From Eledone cirrhosa (lineage: Eukaryota), in NCBI GenBank assembly GCA_964016885.1, contig OZ024760.1, forward strand, positions 29,636,001 to 29,700,000: a stretch of DNA of 64,000 nucleotides, written 5' to 3'. Position numbers and translations under genes: made by a program. Below, piece by piece: positions 269 through 23,352 of the stretch (position 1 is its first letter; every line of letters starts with the position of its first letter). The notes beneath the pieces were generated by a model, which saw nothing but the letters and a program-made list of their open reading frames with translations, was not told the DNA's origin and did not search any database.

Positions 269-408
269 CATATATTTATATTTATAAGTAGAAGTGGTAT
301 TTAATTTGTTGGAAGTCCGACAAACATAAATGTTTATAACTGATTTAGAGCACCCAACAGTTTATTGGAGTAAATATTCAATGATATTAAATAAATGGAA
401 ACTATATT

Positions 409-472
409 TATTTTATTATATATATTTCAAGGGTACCAAGACAACATTGGTACGCTTTCATCAGATAAAATA
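409..472 (-). ncRNA. Type I hammerhead ribozyme motif, family A, intact core
   Basis: Minus strand reads TATTTTAT-CTGATGA-aagcgtacca..tggtaccctt-GAAA-TATATA-TA-ATAAAATA: 8-bp stem I, canonical core, stem II, palindromic stem III, AUA cleavage triplet. Confidence 0.85.
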
Positions 473-522
473 CAAAGTTTGTTTTATAAATAGAGACGTA
501 CCCATTTATAAAACAAACTTTG

Positions 523-583
523 TATTTTATCTGATGAAAGCGTACCAATGTTGTCTTGGTACCCTTGAAATATATATAAAATA
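523..583 (+). ncRNA. Hammerhead ribozyme motif, family A, 3-nt deletion at the cleavage site
   Basis: CTGATGA 531-537, GAAA 567-570, followed by TATAT-ATAAAATA (3 nt shorter than the intact copy). Confidence 0.7.
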
Positions 584-623
584 AATATGGTTTTATAAAT
601 ATAGTTTCCATTTATTTAATATC

Positions 624-802
<179 letters not shown>

Positions 803-1495: not shown

Positions 1496-1990
1496 GAGGT
1501 TATATTTAATTTGCTGGGATTCAACAAGCTTAAACATTTTTATAACTGATATAAAACACTCAACAGTTTATGGAGTAAATATTCAATATATTAATAAATG
1601 GAAACTATATTTATAAAACCATAATTATTTTATTATATATATTTCAAGGGCAACCAAGACAAATTTTGGTGCGCTTTCATCAGATAAAATACAAATTTGT
1701 TTTATAAATATTGACATACCCGCATAAAGACAACCTTAACGGTTGAGGTTCGCTGGAAAGTGGAAAAAATATTTTATTGAGGGTGATTCAAAGTTATGAG
1801 TAAGTATGCAAATGAGTGTCAGACAAATTGAAAAAACATCGGTTTATTTAAATTAAACTGTTGGAAGAAAATAGTGAAAGGGAGAGAGAAAAGGGAGAGA
1901 GAAAAAATATTGAAAGGGAGAGAGAAAAAATAGTGAAAGGGAGAGAGAAAAAATAGTGAAAGGGAGAGAGAAAAAAAAGAGAAAGAGAGA
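1496..1990 (-). repeat. Inverted pseudo-LTR of the PLE (1584-1990) plus ~90-nt tail extension (1496-1583)
   Basis: High-identity inverted match to ~11165-11542; the extension matches 290-379. Confidence 0.88.
1626..1691 (-). ncRNA. Type I hammerhead ribozyme motif, family A, intact core
   Basis: Minus strand: TATTTTAT-CTGATGA-aagcgcaccaa..ttggttgccctt-GAAA-TATATA-TA-ATAAAATA. Confidence 0.85.
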
Positions 1991-2384
1991 AATCGGACTC
2001 GTTTATAAGAAGACTTAGATGGCGTGCTTTTCATTTCGATAAAAAAATCAGATGAAAAAGAAAATAAATCCAACTTCGATAGGATCTTCAAATCCAAGAA
2101 AAATCCACCTACCAACAAATTATTAATGGAATTTGAAAATGAAATTATTTCAATCATACAAAACATTAAATTTAAGAAAAACCATTTTGTAGGCCAGGAT
2201 TACCTCAAAAGTCTTAAAAATAATATAGAAAATTTTGAAAGAACTGAAAAAATTCTTGTTAAATCTGATAAAACCAACAATCTATATGGAATGCAATAAT
2301 AATCTTATATTGAAGGAATTAAGGAAAAATTACAAGAGAGCAACCAATGATGACCTTGAAATACTAAATAGAGAAGCTAATAAT

Positions 2385-2507
2385 TGTTTCTACGTTAGGA
2401 ACAAGGCCAGCAATTACCCAGTGTATTACTGGTACTTTATTTTATCGACCCCGTAAGGATGAAAGGCAAAGTTAACCTCGGCAGAATTTGAACTCAGAAT
2501 GGCAACG
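2385..2507 (-). mobile_element. tRNA-derived SINE family 1, 5'-truncated copy
   Basis: Matches four other copies; 17-bp TSD ATAGAGAAGCTAATAAT at 2368-2384 and 2508-2524. Confidence 0.9.
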
Positions 2508-3440
2508 ATAGAGAAGCTAATAATGCAAAGATTAGGCATCGAAAATAGGACTGAACCCTTTATACCTAAAAAACCAAAAATTAATTTGAAAGACCACAAA
2601 ATAAATTTTGAAATAGAATTACCAGTTAGACTTATATCACCATCTAAATCGAACCTAGGCATAGTTAGCAAAAATATCTTAGATAGAATCATACCGCAAC
2701 TTAAAGAAATATCTTACTTAAAATTATGGAATGGGACTAATGAAGTTATAGACTGGTTTAAGGACAAACAATATAAGCATAACAATAAATTCATTCAATT
2801 GGATATTGCAAATTATTACTCATCTATCACTCCTAATTTACTTAATAAAGCCCTTACATACGCATCTAAATATACTGATTTATCTAGCGATGAAATCCAC
2901 ATCATCTTAACTGCACGTAAAACCTAAATTAAATTTAACAACCATCTTTGGACTAGAGCAGATAGGGATAACAATTACGATATTACTATGGGATCATCGG
3001 ACTCGGCGCAATTAACGGATCTCGTGAGGATTTTTATTAACAATACATTACATAGAAAAATACCGGAGATGACCGGTGGTTTATATCGTGATGATATGCT
3101 ATTGCTAATTGAAAATAATAATAATTGTGAAATCAATAGAAAAAGAAAATCAATAATACAATTTTTTAATAGCTTTAATCTTAAGGTAGAGAATAATTAT
3201 AAAATAGTTAATTTTTTAGATGTAACATTAAACCTTAATACTGGTCTATATTATCCATTTCATAAAATCAATGAGAATTTAAACTATGTTAACTTTAATT
3301 CCAATCACCCGAGATCCGTTAAGAACACTATCGTAAATTCCGTACAGCAACGTATTTCTAGAATTTCAGCGAATAAAAATATATTTGAAGATAAGGCACA
3401 GTATTATAACGAAGCTTTAAGTAGAGCAGGCTATAATAAT

Positions 3441-3628
3441 TGTTTCTACTTTTGGCACAAGGCCAGCAATTATCCCAGTGCATTACTGGTACTTTATTTT
3501 ATCGACCCCGTAAGGATGAAAGGCAAAGTTAACCTCGGCGGGATTTGAACTCAGAATGGCAAGGGCCGTAACTCTATGCGTCAAAGCAGGGCATCCGACC
3601 CTCTACCGATACTGCCAACCCACCGCCC
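3441..3628 (-). mobile_element. tRNA-derived SINE family 1, full length
   Basis: Minus strand has A-box-like TGGCAGTATCGG, B-box GAGTTCAAATCC, central GCCTTTCATCCTTACGGGGTCGATAAAATAAAGTACC (Meta-domain-like, from recall) and ATT tail; 14-bp TSD CAGGCTATAATAAT at 3427-3440 and 3633-3646. Confidence 0.92.
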
Positions 3629-3904
3629 AGATCAGGCTATAATAATGAAATTAAATACATCGACAATAAAGATACCCCAATTAACCATAATTATAATTAT
3701 AATTATAATAAGAAAGCTAGCACAAACTCTAAAATTAAAAGAAGAAATAGAACTAGAAATGTGTTATGGTTCGCTCCTCCTTTCTCATTAAGTATTAAAA
3801 CTCCTTTAGCTAAACTATTTTTTAAAGCTCTCGATAATTGTTTCCCCAAGACACATAGGTATCATGCAATCTTTAACAGACATACAATTAAACTATCATA
3901 TTCT

Positions 3905-9979: not shown

Positions 9980-11432
9980 TATATGGTTAATCTTCCTTCC
10001 ATAATGTTTTCTCTATGCAAACACCTATAATCTCATTCCTCAGATTATATCCATATATGGTTCAAGAATTTAATATAATTCTAATTTTAATAACTTCGTA
10101 AATATATAAAATACACTTATTAAATTTTTAATTTACTCCTTAAAACCTTTACTTTCTAATATTTCTACTTCATAAATATACTTTATATTATTACACTTAT
10201 CAATCCTACCTCCAAAAAATATATCATAACCTTTTTGAATGACTACTTGAAATTCTTTTAAGAAAAGGTTTTCGAAAATTTTAAAAATTTTCTTTGAAAG
10301 ACTTTTTGAAAGTTTTTAAAAAAAATTTTTTGAAAAAACTTTTTGAAAGAATTTTTTGAAAGATACGGAAAAACTATTATTTTCATATCTTCCAATATTT
10401 TTATATCTTCCAATATTTTAAACATTTTTAATATTTATGTATTTTCATATATTTCCAAATACTTCTATATATTTGGAATAATGTATGGTTTGTTTTAATT
10501 ATATTTTAAGATGAATTTTTATAACTTCTTATAACTTTTTAAGAGATTTTTATGTATCCTTGGAGTCATTTGAGTTTTTTTTTAAATCCCTTTTAAACTT
10601 CCTTTAAACTTCCTTATTGTTTTTTATAATCTCAATTTTTATAGTTTTAATTTATAGTCTGAATTTTTAAATGGTTTTAGTATATACTTCTAAATAAGTA
10701 CTTAATCCTTTGTAAACTCTCGTAATTTTTCGTAATCTTTGGAATTTTTTAGGCTAAATATAATTTTGCCAAACTTACTTTAATTAAAAAAAAACAAAAC
10801 AAAACAATACTAAATATTTTTCCAATGTAAAATACTATACATTTAAATAATTTATCATCTATAGCATAACATACCCATCTAAATCCATATATTATTAATA
10901 CATCTTAATATATTTTAAATACTTCTTATTTTTAATTAAATTTAACAGTATTTTTATTTATTCTTAATTTAATTTTTAACTTATTATAAATATAGTATTA
11001 GGTTTAATATAAACATAGCATAATGAACGTTATATTTACGATTTGAGTATCCATCCCTGGAAAAGCTCATTTCTTCGCTCGCTCTTCATAAATTTTCTTC
11101 ACTATCACTCTGCATAGTCTTGTCTCTCTTTCTTTCTCCCTCTTTATCACCCTTTTTCTTTCTTCTTCTCTCTCTTTCTCTTTTTTTTTCTCTCTCCCTT
11201 TCACTATTCCTTCTCTCTCCCTTTCAATATTTTCTCTCTCTCCCTTTCTCTATTTTCTTCCAACAGTTTAATTTAAATAAACCGTTGTTTTTTCAATTTT
11301 TCTGACACTCATTTGCATACTTACTCATAACTTTGAATCACCCCCAATAAAATATTTTTTCCACTATCCAGCGAACCTCAACCCTTAAGGTTGTCTTTAT
11401 GCGGGTATGTAAATATTTATAAAACAAATTTG

Positions 11433-11500
11433 TATTTTATCTGATGAAAACGCACCAAAATTTGTCTTGGTTGCCTTGCCCTTGAAATATATATAAAATA
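11433..11500 (+). ncRNA. Hammerhead motif, family A, in the 3' pseudo-LTR; 3-nt deletion at the cleavage site
   Basis: CTGATGA 11441-11447, GAAA 11484-11487, then TATAT-ATAAAATA; TTGCC duplication in stem II. Confidence 0.7.
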
Positions 11501-11538
11501 ATTATGGCTTTATAAATATAGTTTCCATTTATTAATAT

Positions 11539-11588
<50 letters not shown>

Positions 11589-11589
11589 C

Positions 11590-11769
11590 AACAAAGGTAA
11601 AACTTGAACCGTTAAGGTCTCGTTCCTGGATATGTCAATATTTATAAAACAAACTTTGTATTTTATCTTTATCTGATGAGAGCATACCAAAGTTTTGGTA
11701 CCCTTGAAATATATATAATAGAATAAATATGGTTTTATAAATATAGTTTCCGTTTATTAATATCATTGA
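11590..11769 (+). mobile_element. Solo PLE pseudo-LTR 3' end with hammerhead motif (11665-11725)
   Basis: CTGATGA 11673-11679, GAAA-TATATA-TA-ATAGAATA; same 3' terminus (..TATCATTG) running into (AT)n. Confidence 0.8.
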
Positions 11770-12218
11770 TATATATATATAATATATGTAGAAATAAACA
11801 CAGGGTGTCCTCGGCCCTAGGGCTACCTCCCTACTCACCACCATAGGTGCTGAGGTGGCCAGCCGAAGGTCAGCTCTTCCAGCGCGTCTCACTTGCCGTC
11901 CTCCGGGGAAACGCCTCTATTTTGTCCGCCGAGGCTGAGGGGAGACAAGCCGATTATATTACGAATTCTGTTGGATAGCCTTATATATACCACAAACAGT
12001 AAATTGTGTGTTTAAAATTACAAGGGCTGAAAGACCACATTGGTGTGACAAATATATACTATGTAAGAAACGGAAAATACAAGATAAAAGGTACTATCAG
12101 TTTCAATAACTATTAATCTCCTGGACAGATTAGAGATTTAACCTGTTTCGCCCTGAAAGGTGTTTGTAACACAATATATATATATACTACGTTTTTTGAA
12201 ATATCTATTTCTGCGTTT

Positions 12219-15416: not shown

Positions 15417-15488
<72 letters not shown>

Positions 15489-15493
<5 letters not shown>

Positions 15494-15810
15494 GATATCC
15501 ACGGTAAGTTGTGGGGTCTAGTCTGCATGAAGATCTCAATGTAATCCATATGTTGAAAATGTTGTAGGTTAAAATAAATCCCGGAAAACAATAAAACATT
15601 AAAAGGAAAACAGTCATGATATAAGTTAAAACAATGAAATAAAAAATCAAGTCATTAGAGATATACTTCACTGCTTTACGATCGTTTCTAGGTGATGATA
15701 ATACATTGTAACTATACTTTGTTATCGATCTATGTAAGGTTAGTTACAAAATATCAGATAAAGAGAATATTTACTTACATGCATATCACCCGCTGTTGTC
15801 AAAAGCAATA
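15489..15810 (-). mobile_element. Hammerhead-bearing pseudo-LTR-like repeat, family C (left copy, may extend to ~16200)
   Basis: 15614-15803 is the reverse complement of 16707-16894; ends in (AT)n at 15420-15488. Confidence 0.65.
15670..15809 (-). ncRNA. Candidate type I hammerhead with U3-A8 core variant and long stem II
   Basis: ATTGCTT-TTGACAA-[~107-nt stem II with GGTGAT/ATCACC and GTAACTA/TAGTTAC]-GAAA-CGATCG-TA-AAGCAGT. Confidence 0.6.
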
Positions 15811-16212
15811 ATAATTTTATTCAAAATTAGTAGTAAATTAGTATTATGTTTAGTTCTATGACCTTATTTGGAGGTAGCTGAAGAACTAACCAATCAGATT
15901 GTGTTTTCCATGATGTTAAGATGAAAAATAATTCACTTTAGTTGAGGTCATGACACTTTGAAAGGAATGGTTGAATGGTGTTAATAATAGAATTGCCATA
16001 AAAAATCTATTAGGAAGAGAGGGATTGTCAAATTGATAGTTGAATGTATCTGGTATAGTGAAGTTTAAAAGGAATGTAAAAATTAAATGTTGAGTTGTGT
16101 TGTATGGAGTTTTTAGTTGAATATAAATTAAAGTCATAGGAAAGATAGTATATTAAAAGATGAAAATTATAATAAGATAATGAAATACAGTAATACAATA
16201 ATATAATATAAT

Positions 16213-16399
16213 TATTTCTACGTTTGGCACAAGGCCAGGAATTACCCACTGCATTACTGGTACTTTATTTTATCGACCCTGTAAGGATTAAAGGCAAAGT
16301 TAACCTCGGCGGAATTTGAACTCAGAATGGCAAGGACCGTGACTCTATACGTCAAAGCATGGCGTCGGACCCTCTACCAATACTGCCAATCCACCGCCC
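16213..16399 (-). mobile_element. SINE family 1, full length
   Basis: Matches 3441-3628 end to end. Confidence 0.9.
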
Positions 16400-16706
16400 T
16401 CTATAATAATATAATATAATGTAACACAATATAGTACGGTGTGGTAAATTGCACTTAGTATAATACAGCGTATGATATGCCTTAAAATACTTTCAAGTAT
16501 GTCTATGTATAAATAAGCAAATACATGTTGACATAGTCAAAACGCATAAATTTCATAGATCACAAAGTGCATATACCCACATTATAGATAGAGGTATAGT
16601 TATATTGATACTCAATTAAAAATATACATATGCATAAATAGATGCAAACATATACATACATCTATACATGTGCACACAATCATATACACATATATTTATA
16701 TATATA

Positions 16707-16894
16707 TTTGACAACAGCTGGTGATATGCATGTAAGTAAATATTCTCTTTATCTGATATTTTGTAACTAACCTTACATAGATCGATAACGAAGTATAGTT
16801 ACGATGAATTATCATCACCTAGAAACGATCGTAAAGCAGTGAAGTATATTTCTAATGACTTGATTTTTTATTTCATTGTTTTAACTTATATCAT
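16707..16894 (+). repeat. Inverted copy of the family C repeat, 5'-truncated at the ribozyme core
   Basis: TTGACAA 16708-16714 ... GAAACGATCGTAAAGCAGT to 16840; preceded by (TA)n. Confidence 0.8.
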
Positions 16895-17232
16895 CATTTC
16901 ATCATTTCATTTTACGTCCGCTTTTCCCTGCTTGCAAGGGTGGGACGGGAACTGATTCTGGCTTGATTTCTACAGCTGGATGCCCTTCCTAACACCAACC
17001 TCATTTACAGTGAGTGCTGGGTGCTTTTTTGCCGTGGCACCTCCACGACCACTTTGCAGTGGAATGATAGGGACCCCACTCCCTATCATCTCATTTCTAC
17101 AGCTGAGTAAACTGTAGCAATGTGAAATAAAGTGTATTGCTCAAGGAAACAACACATCACCCGGTCTGAGAATTGAACTCACAACCTTTTGATTGCAAGG
17201 CCAATGCTCTAACCACTAAGCCATGTGCCTCC
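16895..17232 (-). mobile_element. SINE family 2: tRNA head, CORE-like domain, second conserved block, RTE-derived tail
   Basis: Head TGGCTTAGTGGTTAGAGC..GAGTTCAATTC; CORE-like CCTTGAGCAATACACTTTA..CAGCTGTAGAAATG; GGTTGGTGTTAGGAAGGGCATCCAGC; last 43 bp identical to 13968-14010. Confidence 0.85.
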
Positions 17233-19099: not shown

Positions 19100-19430
19100 A
19101 GTCAGACATGGACATCTGGAGAGTCAGACAGACAGATGGACATCTGGAGAGCCAGACAGACAGATGGACATCTGGGGAGCCAGACAGACAGATGGACATC
19201 TGGAGAGCCAGACAGACAGATGGACATCTGGAGAGCCAGACAGACAGATGGACATCTGGAGAGCCAGACAGACAGATGGAAATCTGGGGAGCCAGACAGA
19301 CAGATTGACATCTGGAGAGTTAGACAGACAGATTGACATTTGGAGAGCCAGACAGACAGATGGACATCTGGGGAGCCAGACAGACAGATGGACATCTGGG
19401 GAGCTAGAGACACAGATTGACATCTGTTCT
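19100..19430. repeat. 28-bp minisatellite GACAGACAGATGGACATCTGGAGAGCCA, ~11-12 copies
   Basis: Direct inspection. Confidence 0.95.
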
Positions 19431-20162: not shown

Positions 20163-23056
20163 TGACACAGTTGGGTGACTCTGATACAGCTAAAGACATG
20201 TCAGTCAGTTTGGTGACATGTCTGTCAGTTGGGTGTCTGTGACACGGTTGTATGACTCTGGTACAGCTAAAGACATGTCTGTGACACGGTTGTATGACTC
20301 TGGTACAGCTAAAGAAATGTCTGTGACACGGTTGTGTGACTCTGGTACAGCTACAGCCATGTCTGTGACACAGTTCGGTGACTCTGGTACAGCTACAGCC
20401 ATGTCTGTGACACAGTTGTGTCACTCTAATACAGCTACAGCCATGTCTGTGACACGGTTGTGTGACTCTGGTACAGCTACAGCCATGTCTGTGACACGGT
20501 TGTGTGACACTGGTACAGCTACAGTCATGTCTGTGACACAGTTGTGTGACTCTGGTACAGCTAAGACATGTCTGTGACACGGTTGTGTGACTCTGGTACA
20601 GCTAAGACATGTCTGTGACACGGTTGTGTGACTCTGGTACAACTAAGACATGTCTGTGACATGGTTCGGTGACTCTGGTACAGTTAAAGACATGTCTGTG
20701 ACACGGTTGTGTGACTCTGGTACAGCTACAGCCATGTCTGTGACACGGTTGTGTGACTCTGGTACAGCTACAGCCATGTCTGTGACACAGTTGTGTGACT
20801 CAGGTACAGCTACAGCCATGTCTGTGACACGGTTGTGTGACTCTGGTATAGCTACAGTCATGTCTGTGACACAGTTGTGTGACTCAGGTACAGCTACAGC
20901 CATGTCTGTGACACAGTTGTGTGACTCTGGTACAGCTACAGTCATGTCTGTGACACAGTTGTGTGACTCTGGTACAGCTACAGTCATGTCTGTGACACGG
21001 TTGTGTGACTCTGGTACAGCTAAGACATGTCTGTGACACGGTTCGGTGACTCTGGTACAGCTAAGACATGTCTGTGACATGGTTGTGTGACTCTGGTACA
21101 GCTGAGACATGTCTGTGACACGGTTGTGTGACTCTGGTACAGCTAAGACATGTCTGTGACACAGTTGTGTGACTCTGGTACAGCTACAGCCATGTCTGTG
21201 ACACAGTTGTGTGACTCTGGTACAGCTACAGTCATGTCTGTGACACAGTTGTGTGACTCTGGTACAGCTAAGACATGTCTGTGACACGGTTGTGTGACTC
21301 TGGTACAGCTAAGACATGTCTGTGACACGGTTCGGTGACTCTGGTACAGCTAAGACATGTCTGTGACATGGTTGTGTGACTCTGGTACAGCTAAGACATG
21401 TCTGTGACACGGTTGTGTGACTCTGGTACAGCTAAGACATGTCTGTGACACAGTTGTGTGACTCTGGTACAGCTAAGACATGTCTGTGACACGGTTCGGT
21501 GACTCTGGTACAGTTAAAGAAATGTCTGTGACACGGTTGTGTGACTCTGGTACAGCTAAGACATGACTGTGACACAGTTGTGTGACTCTGGTACAGCTAA
21601 GACATGTCTTTGACACAGTTCGGTGATTCTGGTACAGCTAAGACATGTCTGTGACACGGTTGTGTGACTCTGGTACAGCTAAGACATGTCTGTGACATGG
21701 TTCGGTGACTCTGGTACAGTTAAAGACATGTCTGTGACACGGTTGTGTGACTCTGGTACAGCTACAGCCATGTCTGTGACACAGCTCGGTGACTCTGGTA
21801 CAGCTACAGCCATGTTTGTGACACAATTCAGTGACTCTGGTACAGCTACAGCCATGTCTGTGACACAGTTGTGTGACTCTGGTACAGCTACAGCCATGTC
21901 TGTGACACAGTTCAGTGACTCTGGTACAGCTACAGCCATGTTTGTGACACAATTCAGTGACACTGGTACAGCTACAGCCATGTCTGTGACACAGTTGTGT
22001 GACTCTGGTACAGCTAAAGACATGTCTGTGACACGGTTGTGTGACTCTGGTACAGTTAAAGACATGTCTGTGACACAGTTCGGTGACTCTGGTACAGCTA
22101 AGACATGTCTGTGACGCAGTTGTGTGACTCTGGTACAGCTAAGACATGTCTGTGACACAGTTCGGTGACTCTGGTACAGCTAAGACATGTCTGTGACACA
22201 GTGGTGTGACTCTGCTACAGCTAAGACATGTCTGTGACACAGTTCGGTGACTCTGGTACAGCTACAGCCATGTCTGTGACACAGTGGTGTGACTCTGGTA
22301 CAGCTGCAGCCATGTCTGTGACACAGTTGTGTGACTCAGGTACAGCTACAGCCATGTCTGTGACACGGTTGTGTGACTCTGGTACAGCTACAGCCATGTC
22401 TGTGACACAGTGGTGTGACTCTGCTACAGCTAAGACATGTCTGTGACATGGTTGTGTGACTCTGGTACAGCTACAGCCATGTCTGTGACACAGTTGTGTG
22501 ACTCTGGTACAGCTACAGCCATGTCTGTGACACAGTTGTGTGACTCAGGTACAGCTACAGCCATGTCTGTGACACGGTTGTGTGACTCTGGTACAGCTAC
22601 AGCCATGTCTGTGACACAGTGGTGTGACTCTGCTACAGCTAAGACATGTCTGTGACATGGTTGTGTGACTCTGGTACAGCTACAGCCATGTCTGTGACAC
22701 AGTTGTGTGACTCTGGTACAGCTACAGACATGTCTGTGACACAGTTCGGTGACTCTGGTACAGCTAAGACATGTCTGTGACACAGTTGTGTGACTCTGGT
22801 ACAGCTACAGCCATGTCTGTGACACAGTTCGGTGACTCTGGTACAGCTACAGCCATGTCTGTGACACAGTTGTGTGATTCTGGTACAGCTAAGACATGTC
22901 TGTGACACAGTTGTGTGACTCTGGTACAGCTAAGACATGTCTGTGACACAGTTCGGTGACTCTGGTACAGCTACAGCCATGTCTGTGACACAGTTGTGTG
23001 ACTCTGGTACAGCTACAGCCATGTCTGTGACACAGTTGTGTGACTCTGGTACAGCT
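20163..23056. repeat. 41/42-bp minisatellite TGTCTGTGACACAGTTGTGTGACTCTGGTACAGCTACAGCCA, roughly 69 copies
   Basis: Variants ending CTACAGCCA (42), CTAAGACA (41) and CTAAAGACA (42) are interspersed. Confidence 0.97.
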
Positions 23057-23352
23057 CAGATGAAATAAAGTCATTCAGTAAAGCCGTGACTAGTTGTTGT
23101 TGTTGTTGTAGTACCATTACAGTTGTAAAAGTGACGGGATGTTGTGGCAATCATGGTTATATCAACTTATTTCATGTTATACAATATAGAGAGAAAAGAA
23201 GGAGAGAGAAAGAAAGAGTGAAACAGAGAGTCAGATAGATTGGGGGGGGGGGTATTCAGAGTGATAAAGAGAGAGAGAGAGGGAGAGAGGAAGAAAAAGA
23301 GAGTGATAAAGAAGGAGAGTTAGAGAACGAGAGAAAGTGATGGGTTTGTTAC

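What the first reader, a model, noticed from the sequence alone, without database searches (positions are those of the whole stretch)
15670..15809. Hammerhead candidate with compensatory U3-A8 core and ~107-nt stem II (family C)
Seen: 7-bp stem I (ATTGCTT/AAGCAGT), palindromic stem III (ACGATCGT), GUA triplet and GAAA, but the core is UUGACAA instead of CUGANGA, in both copies (15796-15802 minus, 16708-16714 plus). Known: positions 3 and 8 form a Watson-Crick tertiary pair (C3-G8) in the active fold, so U3-A8 preserves it. Inference: a rare natural core variant that standard CUGANGA searches with short stem II limits would miss. Caveat: the base of stem II is a C-A mismatch, and two transitions could be decay.
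Basis: partly seen in the sequence, partly recalled or inferred. Interest (0 to 1): 0.75.

Follow-up and report, generated by a model that had tools for sequence, protein, structure and literature searches.

The report
Penelope hammerhead with swapped core pair
This is a likely self-cutting RNA motif in the end repeat of a Penelope-type jumping gene; its swapped core pair is shared by nearly all checked copies of the family and is already known from other animals, while its roughly 100-base side arm, kept by pairing in sister families, is longer than in the published table for this group.

Summary
The motif is real and sits in the pseudo-LTR of a Penelope-like retrotransposon with Hydra-clade protein motifs. 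U3-A8 is the family state, not decay: 826 genomic matches carry U3 against 5 with C3, none of those 5 has G8, and 98 of 100 listed U3 copies have A8. Sister families keep C3-G8 with the same 90-150-nt stem II (4,750 matches, 0 in controls). Stems I and II covary between families, and the C-A base and a C-C mismatch are shared. The two window 'copies' are the arms of one inverted insertion, and the second lacks stem I. U3-A8 is already published, including in Penelope hammerheads (PMC3088659, PMC4209133). The long stem II is absent from the 26 published Hydra rows. Cleavage is untested; genomic 5' ends at the predicted cut are weakly enriched (11, or 9, against 5 and 3). The scan noted a similar motif in this genome before (e1-9560118). 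Verdict: a well-supported new variant of a known kind.

The parts
15490..16707 (-). Long arm of a 5'-truncated Penelope-like element (3' region and pseudo-LTR with the long tail, ending 206 nt past the predicted cut), next to a (TA)n run at about 15420-15489
   Evidence: 92% over 1,109 nt to the RT/endonuclease-bearing copy L031 for 15616-16707; tail matches its other pLTR; 3' ends at +58 and +206 in 33 and 39 of 91 hits
15803..15809 (-). Stem I, 5' strand
   Evidence: pairs 1.3 and 1.4 are C-G and G-C here, U-A and A-U in sister families
15796..15802 (-). Core U3 U4 G5 A6 C7 A8 A9 (U3-A8 in place of C3-G8)
   Evidence: column pair C-G 13, U-A 5, unpaired 0 of 18 rows
15689..15795 (-). 107-nt stem II: C-A base, two pairs, C-C mismatch, 7-8-bp helix, then a long irregular hairpin
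   Evidence: positions 5-11 paired in 97%, 98% and 89% of cells in families C, D and E with different sequences
15730..15778 (-). 49-nt GT...AG segment inside stem II with splice-like signals; intron status not shown
   Evidence: GTAWGT in 95 of 104 rows and TACATAGATC in 87 of 104 (rows partly chosen on the AG-side letters); no precisely spliced genomic copy
15678..15688 (-). G12-A13-A14 and the palindromic stem III ACGAUCGU (2 bp as monomer, 8 bp between two copies)
   Evidence: duplex -10.0 kcal/mol
15676..15679 (-). GUA triplet; predicted cut between 15677 and 15676
   Evidence: Hammerhead consensus; A17 in 55 of 55 family rows; 11 genomic 5' junctions at this point
15670..15676 (-). Stem I, 3' strand
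16707..16897 (+). Short inverted arm of the same insertion: core 16708-16714, stem II 16715-16821, GAAA and stem III 16822-16832, stem I 3' strand 16834-16840; stem I 5' strand missing; no long tail
16208..16399 (.). SINE-like repeat carried inside the element's 3' region
   Evidence: Repeated elsewhere in the window; lies inside the continuous match to L031

Best explanation
This is a type I hammerhead motif in the pseudo-LTR of a Penelope-like retrotransposon, with a family-wide U3-A8 core pair and a roughly 100-nt stem II whose pairing is conserved across sister families, and it likely cuts the element's RNA after GUA, probably slowly and as a dimer. Shown: the host element, the fixed U3-A8, C3-G8 in sister families, covariation in stems I and II. 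Inferred: U3-A8 arose once in the ancestor of family C from C3-G8 and keeps the 3-8 tertiary pair; two pLTR copies pair through the 8-nt palindrome to build stem III; the cut trims tandem or read-through transcripts, 272 nt ahead of the ORF start in a pLTR-ORF copy. As a monomer U3 is predicted to pair with A17 and extend stem I into an inactive fold, which dimer formation or the element's protein would have to overcome.
For: Host: RT and C-terminal GIY-YIG (PF01541, E 1.3e-4) 1.2-1.4 kb upstream of the motif; pLTR followed by the ORF start in L050/L215. Core: 29 of 30 best loci UUGACAA; 826 U3 against 5 C3 matches, 0 of 5 with G8; 98 of 100 listed with A8, and N7 is the core position that varies. 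Sisters: 4,750 C3-G8 matches with 90-150-nt spacing, 0 controls; families C, D and E group on the endonuclease tree (87/89); more distant long-stem families also have C3-G8. Structure: 89.3% of cells paired, 23 cells changed on both sides, covariation score 0.355 against 0.206 in shuffles (0 of 500), slid controls 22-53% paired; stem II positions 5-11 change pair type between families. 5' junctions at the predicted cut 11 against 5 and 3 at two control sites (p = 0.024). Literature: U3-A8 occurs naturally and is reported active in vitro (PMC3088659, section 8); mismatched stem II bases are common in Hydra rows.
Against: No cleavage data. The 10.1-11.1 position is C-A, not the usual G-C, and C-A does not appear in the 26 published Hydra rows. 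The hammerhead-shaped monomer is 4.7-5.0 kcal/mol above the minimum-energy fold. The junction excess falls to 9 against 8 pooled (p = 0.076) when two junctions explained by stem I microhomology are removed, and two of the 11 share one junction. The 3-8 covariation rests on one evolutionary event; the C/D/E split is unresolved, so its direction rests on parsimony. The family C lower helix also pairs when slid by 3 (83% and 96%), and family D when slid by 2 (68% and 83%), because the sequences are repetitive. Published metazoan PLE hammerheads cut weakly (PMC4209133); in an Anolis PLE cutting needed protein, was not needed for insertion in vitro, and no RNA reads ended at the site (PMC11167929).
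Confidence: 0.72

Rival explanations
1. The family C motif descends from an active hammerhead but no longer cuts at a useful rate; the stems are kept as a promoter, protein-binding or template structure and U3-A8 was carried along.
For: C-A at the base of stem II; predicted U3-A17 trap; in an Anolis PLE the hammerhead was dispensable for insertion in vitro (PMC11167929); Naiads spread without canonical hammerheads (PMC8557442); weak junction signal.
Against: A dead core would not be expected to change at exactly 3 and 8 together and at N7 while keeping the other core letters; the C-A base is shared with C3-G8 families of thousands of copies.
Confidence: 0.2
2. The long stem II holds a spliceosomal 5' splice site, so splicing and ribozyme folding exclude each other: spliced RNA is the messenger and unspliced RNA is the cut or copied template. 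This can hold together with the best explanation.
For: GTAWGT is kept in 48 of 55, 42 of 44 and 5 of 5 rows while the helix below it turns over; family D reads AG|GTATGT; five AUGs lie between this site and the ORF start in L183; 5'-UTR introns in pLTRs are known for Penelope and Chlamys-3 (PMC8557442).
Against: The GT...AG distance is only 42-54 nt; both signals also pair inside the hairpin, and removing the segment weakens the fold; no precisely spliced genomic copy among 0 and 2 matches, though PLEs keep their introns; no far 3' splice site was established.
Confidence: 0.2
3. The two transitions are decay of a CUGACGA core in these copies, or the motif is a chance match.
For: G8 to A could be CpG decay after C7; Rfam has no hit.
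Against: 826 against 5, no C3-G8 copy in the family context, and the commoner subfamily has A7, so no CpG; covarying stems; position in a pLTR.
Confidence: 0.02

Closest known systems
Hammerheads of Hydra-clade Penelope-like elements (Craig et al. 2021, PMC8557442; section 11, passages, and part 2 of 59 of the supplement with File S2 read)
   Same: Type I motif in the sense strand near the 3' end, short palindromic stem III, frequent mismatch at the base of stem II (U-U in 14 of 26 rows), (TA)n targets, DKT, CxCX5C, CxxC and CxH protein motifs.
   Different: All 26 rows have C3-G8 and a stem-loop II of about 26 nt or less; here U3-A8, 107 nt, C-A base and C-C mismatch. The element is about 4.3 kb against generally under 3 kb, and reads RWR for RWK.
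Minimal PLE hammerheads with U3-A8 in Schistosoma mansoni Cercyon elements (Cervera and de la Pena 2014, PMC4209133; parts 1-2 of 4 read)
   Same: U3-A8 core in a pLTR hammerhead (about 1,300 hits), opposite-strand pairs 100-700 bp apart, dimer design.
   Different: Helix II of 7-8 bp with a conserved G10.1-C11.1 pair and little or no helix III.
Natural core variants of Perreault et al. 2011 (PMC3088659; section 8 and passages read)
   Same: C3-G8 to U3-A8 covariation in nature; stem II starting with a mismatch (U-U).
   Different: C-A at that position and a 100-nt stem II are not described in the section read.
Drosophila virilis Penelope and Chlamys-3 pLTR introns (PMC4209133; PMC8557442 passages)
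   Same: Splice-like signals within the pLTR 5' leader; in D. virilis the intron end touches the hammerhead.
   Different: There the intron is demonstrated and ends at helix I; here the signals lie inside stem II and splicing is not shown.

Membership tests
Type I hammerhead ribozyme | Core letters U4 G5 A6 A9, G12 A13 A14, A15.1-U16.1, H17 | tested here: met
   (the row-picking pattern fixed the GAAA and stem III letters)
Type I hammerhead ribozyme | Watson-Crick pair between 3 and 8 | tested here: met
   U-A in family C, C-G in D and E
Type I hammerhead ribozyme | Three helices around the core | tested here: met
   Stems I and II covary; stem III is 2 bp as monomer, 8 bp as dimer and invariant, so it gives no covariation
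Type I hammerhead ribozyme | Paired base of stem II (usually G10.1-C11.1; conserved but with known exceptions) | tested here: not met
   C-A in 98 of 104 rows; U-U exceptions are published
Type I hammerhead ribozyme | Loop I / loop II tertiary contact | not testable with these tools
   No recognisable loop-loop motif; the conserved C-C mismatch is a candidate only
Type I hammerhead ribozyme | Self-cleavage after H17 | not testable with these tools
   Only an indirect, weak excess of genomic 5' junctions
EN+ Penelope-like element | Single ORF with RT and C-terminal GIY-YIG | tested here: met
   homologues of 711-806 aa at 34-49% identity. Pfam found no RT family; RT is read from motifs such as LYRDD
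EN+ Penelope-like element | pLTRs, inverted 5'-truncated arm, one-sided tail | tested here: met
Hydra clade | DKT, CxCX5C linker, CxxC and CxH around the conserved E and N | tested here: met
Hydra clade | N-terminal RWK motif | tested here: inconclusive
   RWR in L031; a G-run insertion breaks it in L215
Hydra clade | Insertion into (TA)n | tested here: met
Hydra clade | Absence of the CCHH motif; grouping with published Hydra RTs on a tree | not tested
   No published Hydra protein was in the tree
Spliceosomal intron | Precise GT-AG removal in RNA | not testable with these tools
   No RNA holder listed; no precise genomic spliced copy

The most novel reading that the evidence does not exclude
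The 100-nt stem II is a splice-or-cut switch: it buries the element's 5' splice site in the helix that the hammerhead needs, so one pLTR yields either a spliced messenger freed of upstream AUGs or an unspliced, ribozyme-cut template, which would explain why Penelope-like elements keep both introns and weak hammerheads.
Probability: 0.15. Interest if true: 0.7.

Novelty: new variant of a known kind. Interest (0 to 1): 0.38.

Why it matters
The role of hammerheads in Penelope-like elements is open. Here one genome holds sister families that differ at the 3-8 pair yet share an oversized stem II with two fixed mismatches, which is a ready natural comparison for asking whether these motifs are selected for cutting and what the mismatches do. 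It also shows that descriptor and Rfam searches miss thousands of such motifs (4,750 plus 826 matches here). The core swap by itself adds little, since it is published.

Tried and rejected
Rfam at E up to 10: 34 matches, none a hammerhead. RNA evidence: no RNA holder listed; the three contig sets, of unrecorded kind and one sample, showed no joint at the GT-AG segment and no pile of loose ends at the cut among the rows shown; neither counts for or against. Spliced genomic copies: 0 for the exact junction of one subfamily; 2 shortened copies for both subfamilies, neither a precise GT-AG removal. A pattern for the tail-to-ORF junction found 0 because the ATG lies further on; L050 then showed it. 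I first read the linker as Neptune/Nematis-type and the tail as the ORF start; both were dropped. The family-wide constrained folding was inconclusive: stem I was recovered for family C (median 7 bp) but not for D and E (median 0), so I do not compare the energy gaps. Absence of shared variants from paired positions within family C is not used as evidence, since the searches fixed many of those letters. Two loci with a U3-A8-like string and other inserts (L166, L167) have only 4-5 of 8 stem I pairs and were left unresolved. Pfam gave nothing for the RT pieces or three homologues. Two papers asked for by id were not held, so Lunse et al. on dimer cleavage was seen only as a title in a reference list, and the in vitro U3-A8 study only as cited in PMC3088659. 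Paper searches for a long stem II in PLE hammerheads found no description; subscription journals and the supplements of PMC4209133 and the 2026 preprint were not seen and may hold one.

Full report
Observation. The insert folds into one long hairpin (z = -2.99, 1 of 200 shuffles). Rfam reports no hammerhead in the window (34 matches at E up to 10). The second core at 16708-16714 is real, but the two copies meet head to head at 16707 and are the arms of one insertion. The plus arm begins at the core and lacks the 5' strand of stem I.

Host element. A DNA search of the own genome (3.0 Gb) gave 41 matches from 40 scored of 1,856 candidates, the listed ones 96-100% identical. [quoted passage not shown] In L050/L183/L215 (one locus) the motif is followed by the tail and, 272 nt after the predicted cut, by the ORF start, so it lies in the pseudo-LTR and in the 5' leader of tandem copies. 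Inverted pairs are common, 3' ends fall at +58 or +206 (33 and 39 of 91 hits), and copies end in (TA)n. DKT, CxCX5C, CxxC and CxH match the Hydra clade as defined in PMC8557442 section 11; the lead to Hydra came from note e1-9560118 and I tested the motifs, not the tree position.

Is U3-A8 decay? No. 29 of the 30 best loci read UUGACAA, but these were chosen by likeness. Patterns that leave positions 7 and 8 free give 826 matches with U3 and 5 with C3, none of which has G8. Of the first 100 U3 matches listed, 98 have A8, 1 G8 and 1 U8 (counted from the listing). Position 7 varies by subfamily (A, C, rarely U), as expected for N7.

Sister families. A search for CUGANGA near the same stem III gave 124 matches against 8 controls and exposed relatives with the same stem II base. 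With a 90-150-nt spacing there are 4,750 matches and 0 controls; most listed rows belong to two groups, D and E, whose endonucleases are 57-68% identical to family C. On a 23-row tree C, D and E group together (87/89) in an open three-way split. More distant families with 56-102-nt inserts also have C3-G8, so U3-A8 is most simply derived, once, in family C. That direction is an inference.

Structure. On 18 hand-picked rows of the three groups, 13 named pairs gave 89.3% paired cells, 23 cells changed on both sides and a score of 0.355 (shuffles 0.206, 0 of 500), against 22-53% paired when slid; two measures that count pair types did not exceed the shuffles (314 and 446 of 500). On 104 rows picked by pattern from the fetched loci (C 55, D 44, E 5), stem I pairs 1.3 and 1.4 are C-G and G-C in C and U-A and A-U in D and E. 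Stem II starts with C-A (98 of 104), then a purine-pyrimidine pair, G-C, and C-C or C-U (104 of 104 unpaired). Positions 5-11 are paired in 97%, 98% and 89% of cells, with different pair types in each family at six of the seven positions. Slid registers also pair in C (3 nt) and D (2 nt) because of repeats, so the cross-family turnover is the evidence, not the slide. Inserts fold better than shuffles in all three groups (median z -2.6, -5.7, -2.8 on 12, 12 and 5 rows). So the long arm and both mismatches are conserved features, not decay.

Does it cut? Not testable here. Stem III is 2 bp alone and 8 bp between two copies (-10.0 kcal/mol); the hammerhead-shaped monomer lies 4.7-5.0 kcal/mol above a fold in which U3 pairs with A17. 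This fits the dimer model and low activity reported for metazoan PLE hammerheads (PMC4209133, parts 1-2 read). If cut RNA were copied, some insertions should begin at the cut. A pattern for such junctions gave 16 matches: 11 junctions and 5 single-base deletions. Controls 5 and 10 nt downstream gave 7 and 6 matches, of which 5 and 3 are junctions. That is p = 0.024, or 0.076 after removing two junctions that stem I microhomology explains; two of the 11 share one junction. It is a hint only. In an Anolis PLE the hammerhead needed protein and was dispensable for insertion in vitro (PMC11167929, passages).

Splice-like signals. Stem II contains GTAAGT ... TACATAG (15778-15730). GTAWGT is present in 95 of 104 rows while the helix beneath it turns over, and pLTR introns are known in Penelope and Chlamys-3. 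Against it: the span is 42-54 nt, both ends pair within the hairpin and removal weakens the fold, and no precisely spliced copy exists among the patterns tried. A longer intron from this GT would remove the cut site and five upstream AUGs, but no 3' site is established. I keep it as the bold, low-probability reading.

What is known. U3-A8 occurs in nature and is cited as active in vitro (PMC3088659, section 8) and was found as about 1,300 hits in Schistosoma PLEs. The 26 Hydra rows of File S2 all have C3-G8, a stem-loop II of about 26 nt or less, and U-U at its base in 14; those rows came from a canonical descriptor, so they could not have shown this variant. A non-Hydra row reaches about 53 nt. 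Seven paper searches found no 100-nt stem II in PLE hammerheads. Other papers seen: the 2026 retrozyme preprint (part 1 of 5), PMC7229834, PMC6765202 and PMC3846280 (passages), PMC2920678 (part 1 of 2). Earlier notes of this scan describe U3-A8, long stem II and a C-C mismatch in other pieces of this genome; a search by sequence did not link them to this stretch, so whether e1-9560118 is the same family is unknown.

Verdict. A real, well-supported hammerhead motif of a Penelope-like element with a compensated core; a new variant of a known kind, chiefly for its long conserved stem II. Cleavage is likely but unshown. Interest 0.38.

Noticed in passing
window 371-635, 1576-1750, 11152-11800: Another family of type I hammerheads with canonical CUGAUGA and a 29-36-nt stem II that also has a C-C mismatch at the fourth position; 371-635 is a near-perfect palindrome of two such copies.
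   Followed up: partly
window about 1990-3900 (+): A broken Penelope-like RT frame of a related family, interrupted by stops and two SINE insertions (2378-2505, 3431-3628).
   Followed up: partly
window about 23800-64000: About 40 kb of a 5-bp-based satellite (TGTAA with TG and TATAA variants), GC skew about 0.9.
   Followed up: no
window 19100-19426 and 20163-23060: Two shorter tandem arrays with periods that look like multiples of about 28 and 42 nt.
   Followed up: no
L044, L045, L066, L200, L075, L064: Several inverted arms begin at -135 to -131 from the cut, the start of stem I, which may mark the RNA's 5' end; most of these loci were chosen by a pattern that needs this region.
   Followed up: partly
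L216:2738-3739: Both arms of an inverted insertion carry about 365 nt of foreign sequence joined exactly at the predicted cut, so a chimeric template was copied twice.
   Followed up: partly
L195 and L199: Two insertions on different contigs share the same inversion junction (one arm at the cut, the other at +6) with the long tail on opposite arms.
   Followed up: no
L168-L176, L139, L148: Further hammerhead families with the same stem III, an 8-bp stem I, C3-G8 and varied 35-102-nt inserts in stem II.
   Followed up: partly
L031:5999-5195 and L033:4393-3718 (-): An Asn/Thr/His-rich low-complexity stretch between RT and endonuclease, recalling the Asn-rich inserts of rotifer Penelope ORFs in PMC3846280.
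   Followed up: no
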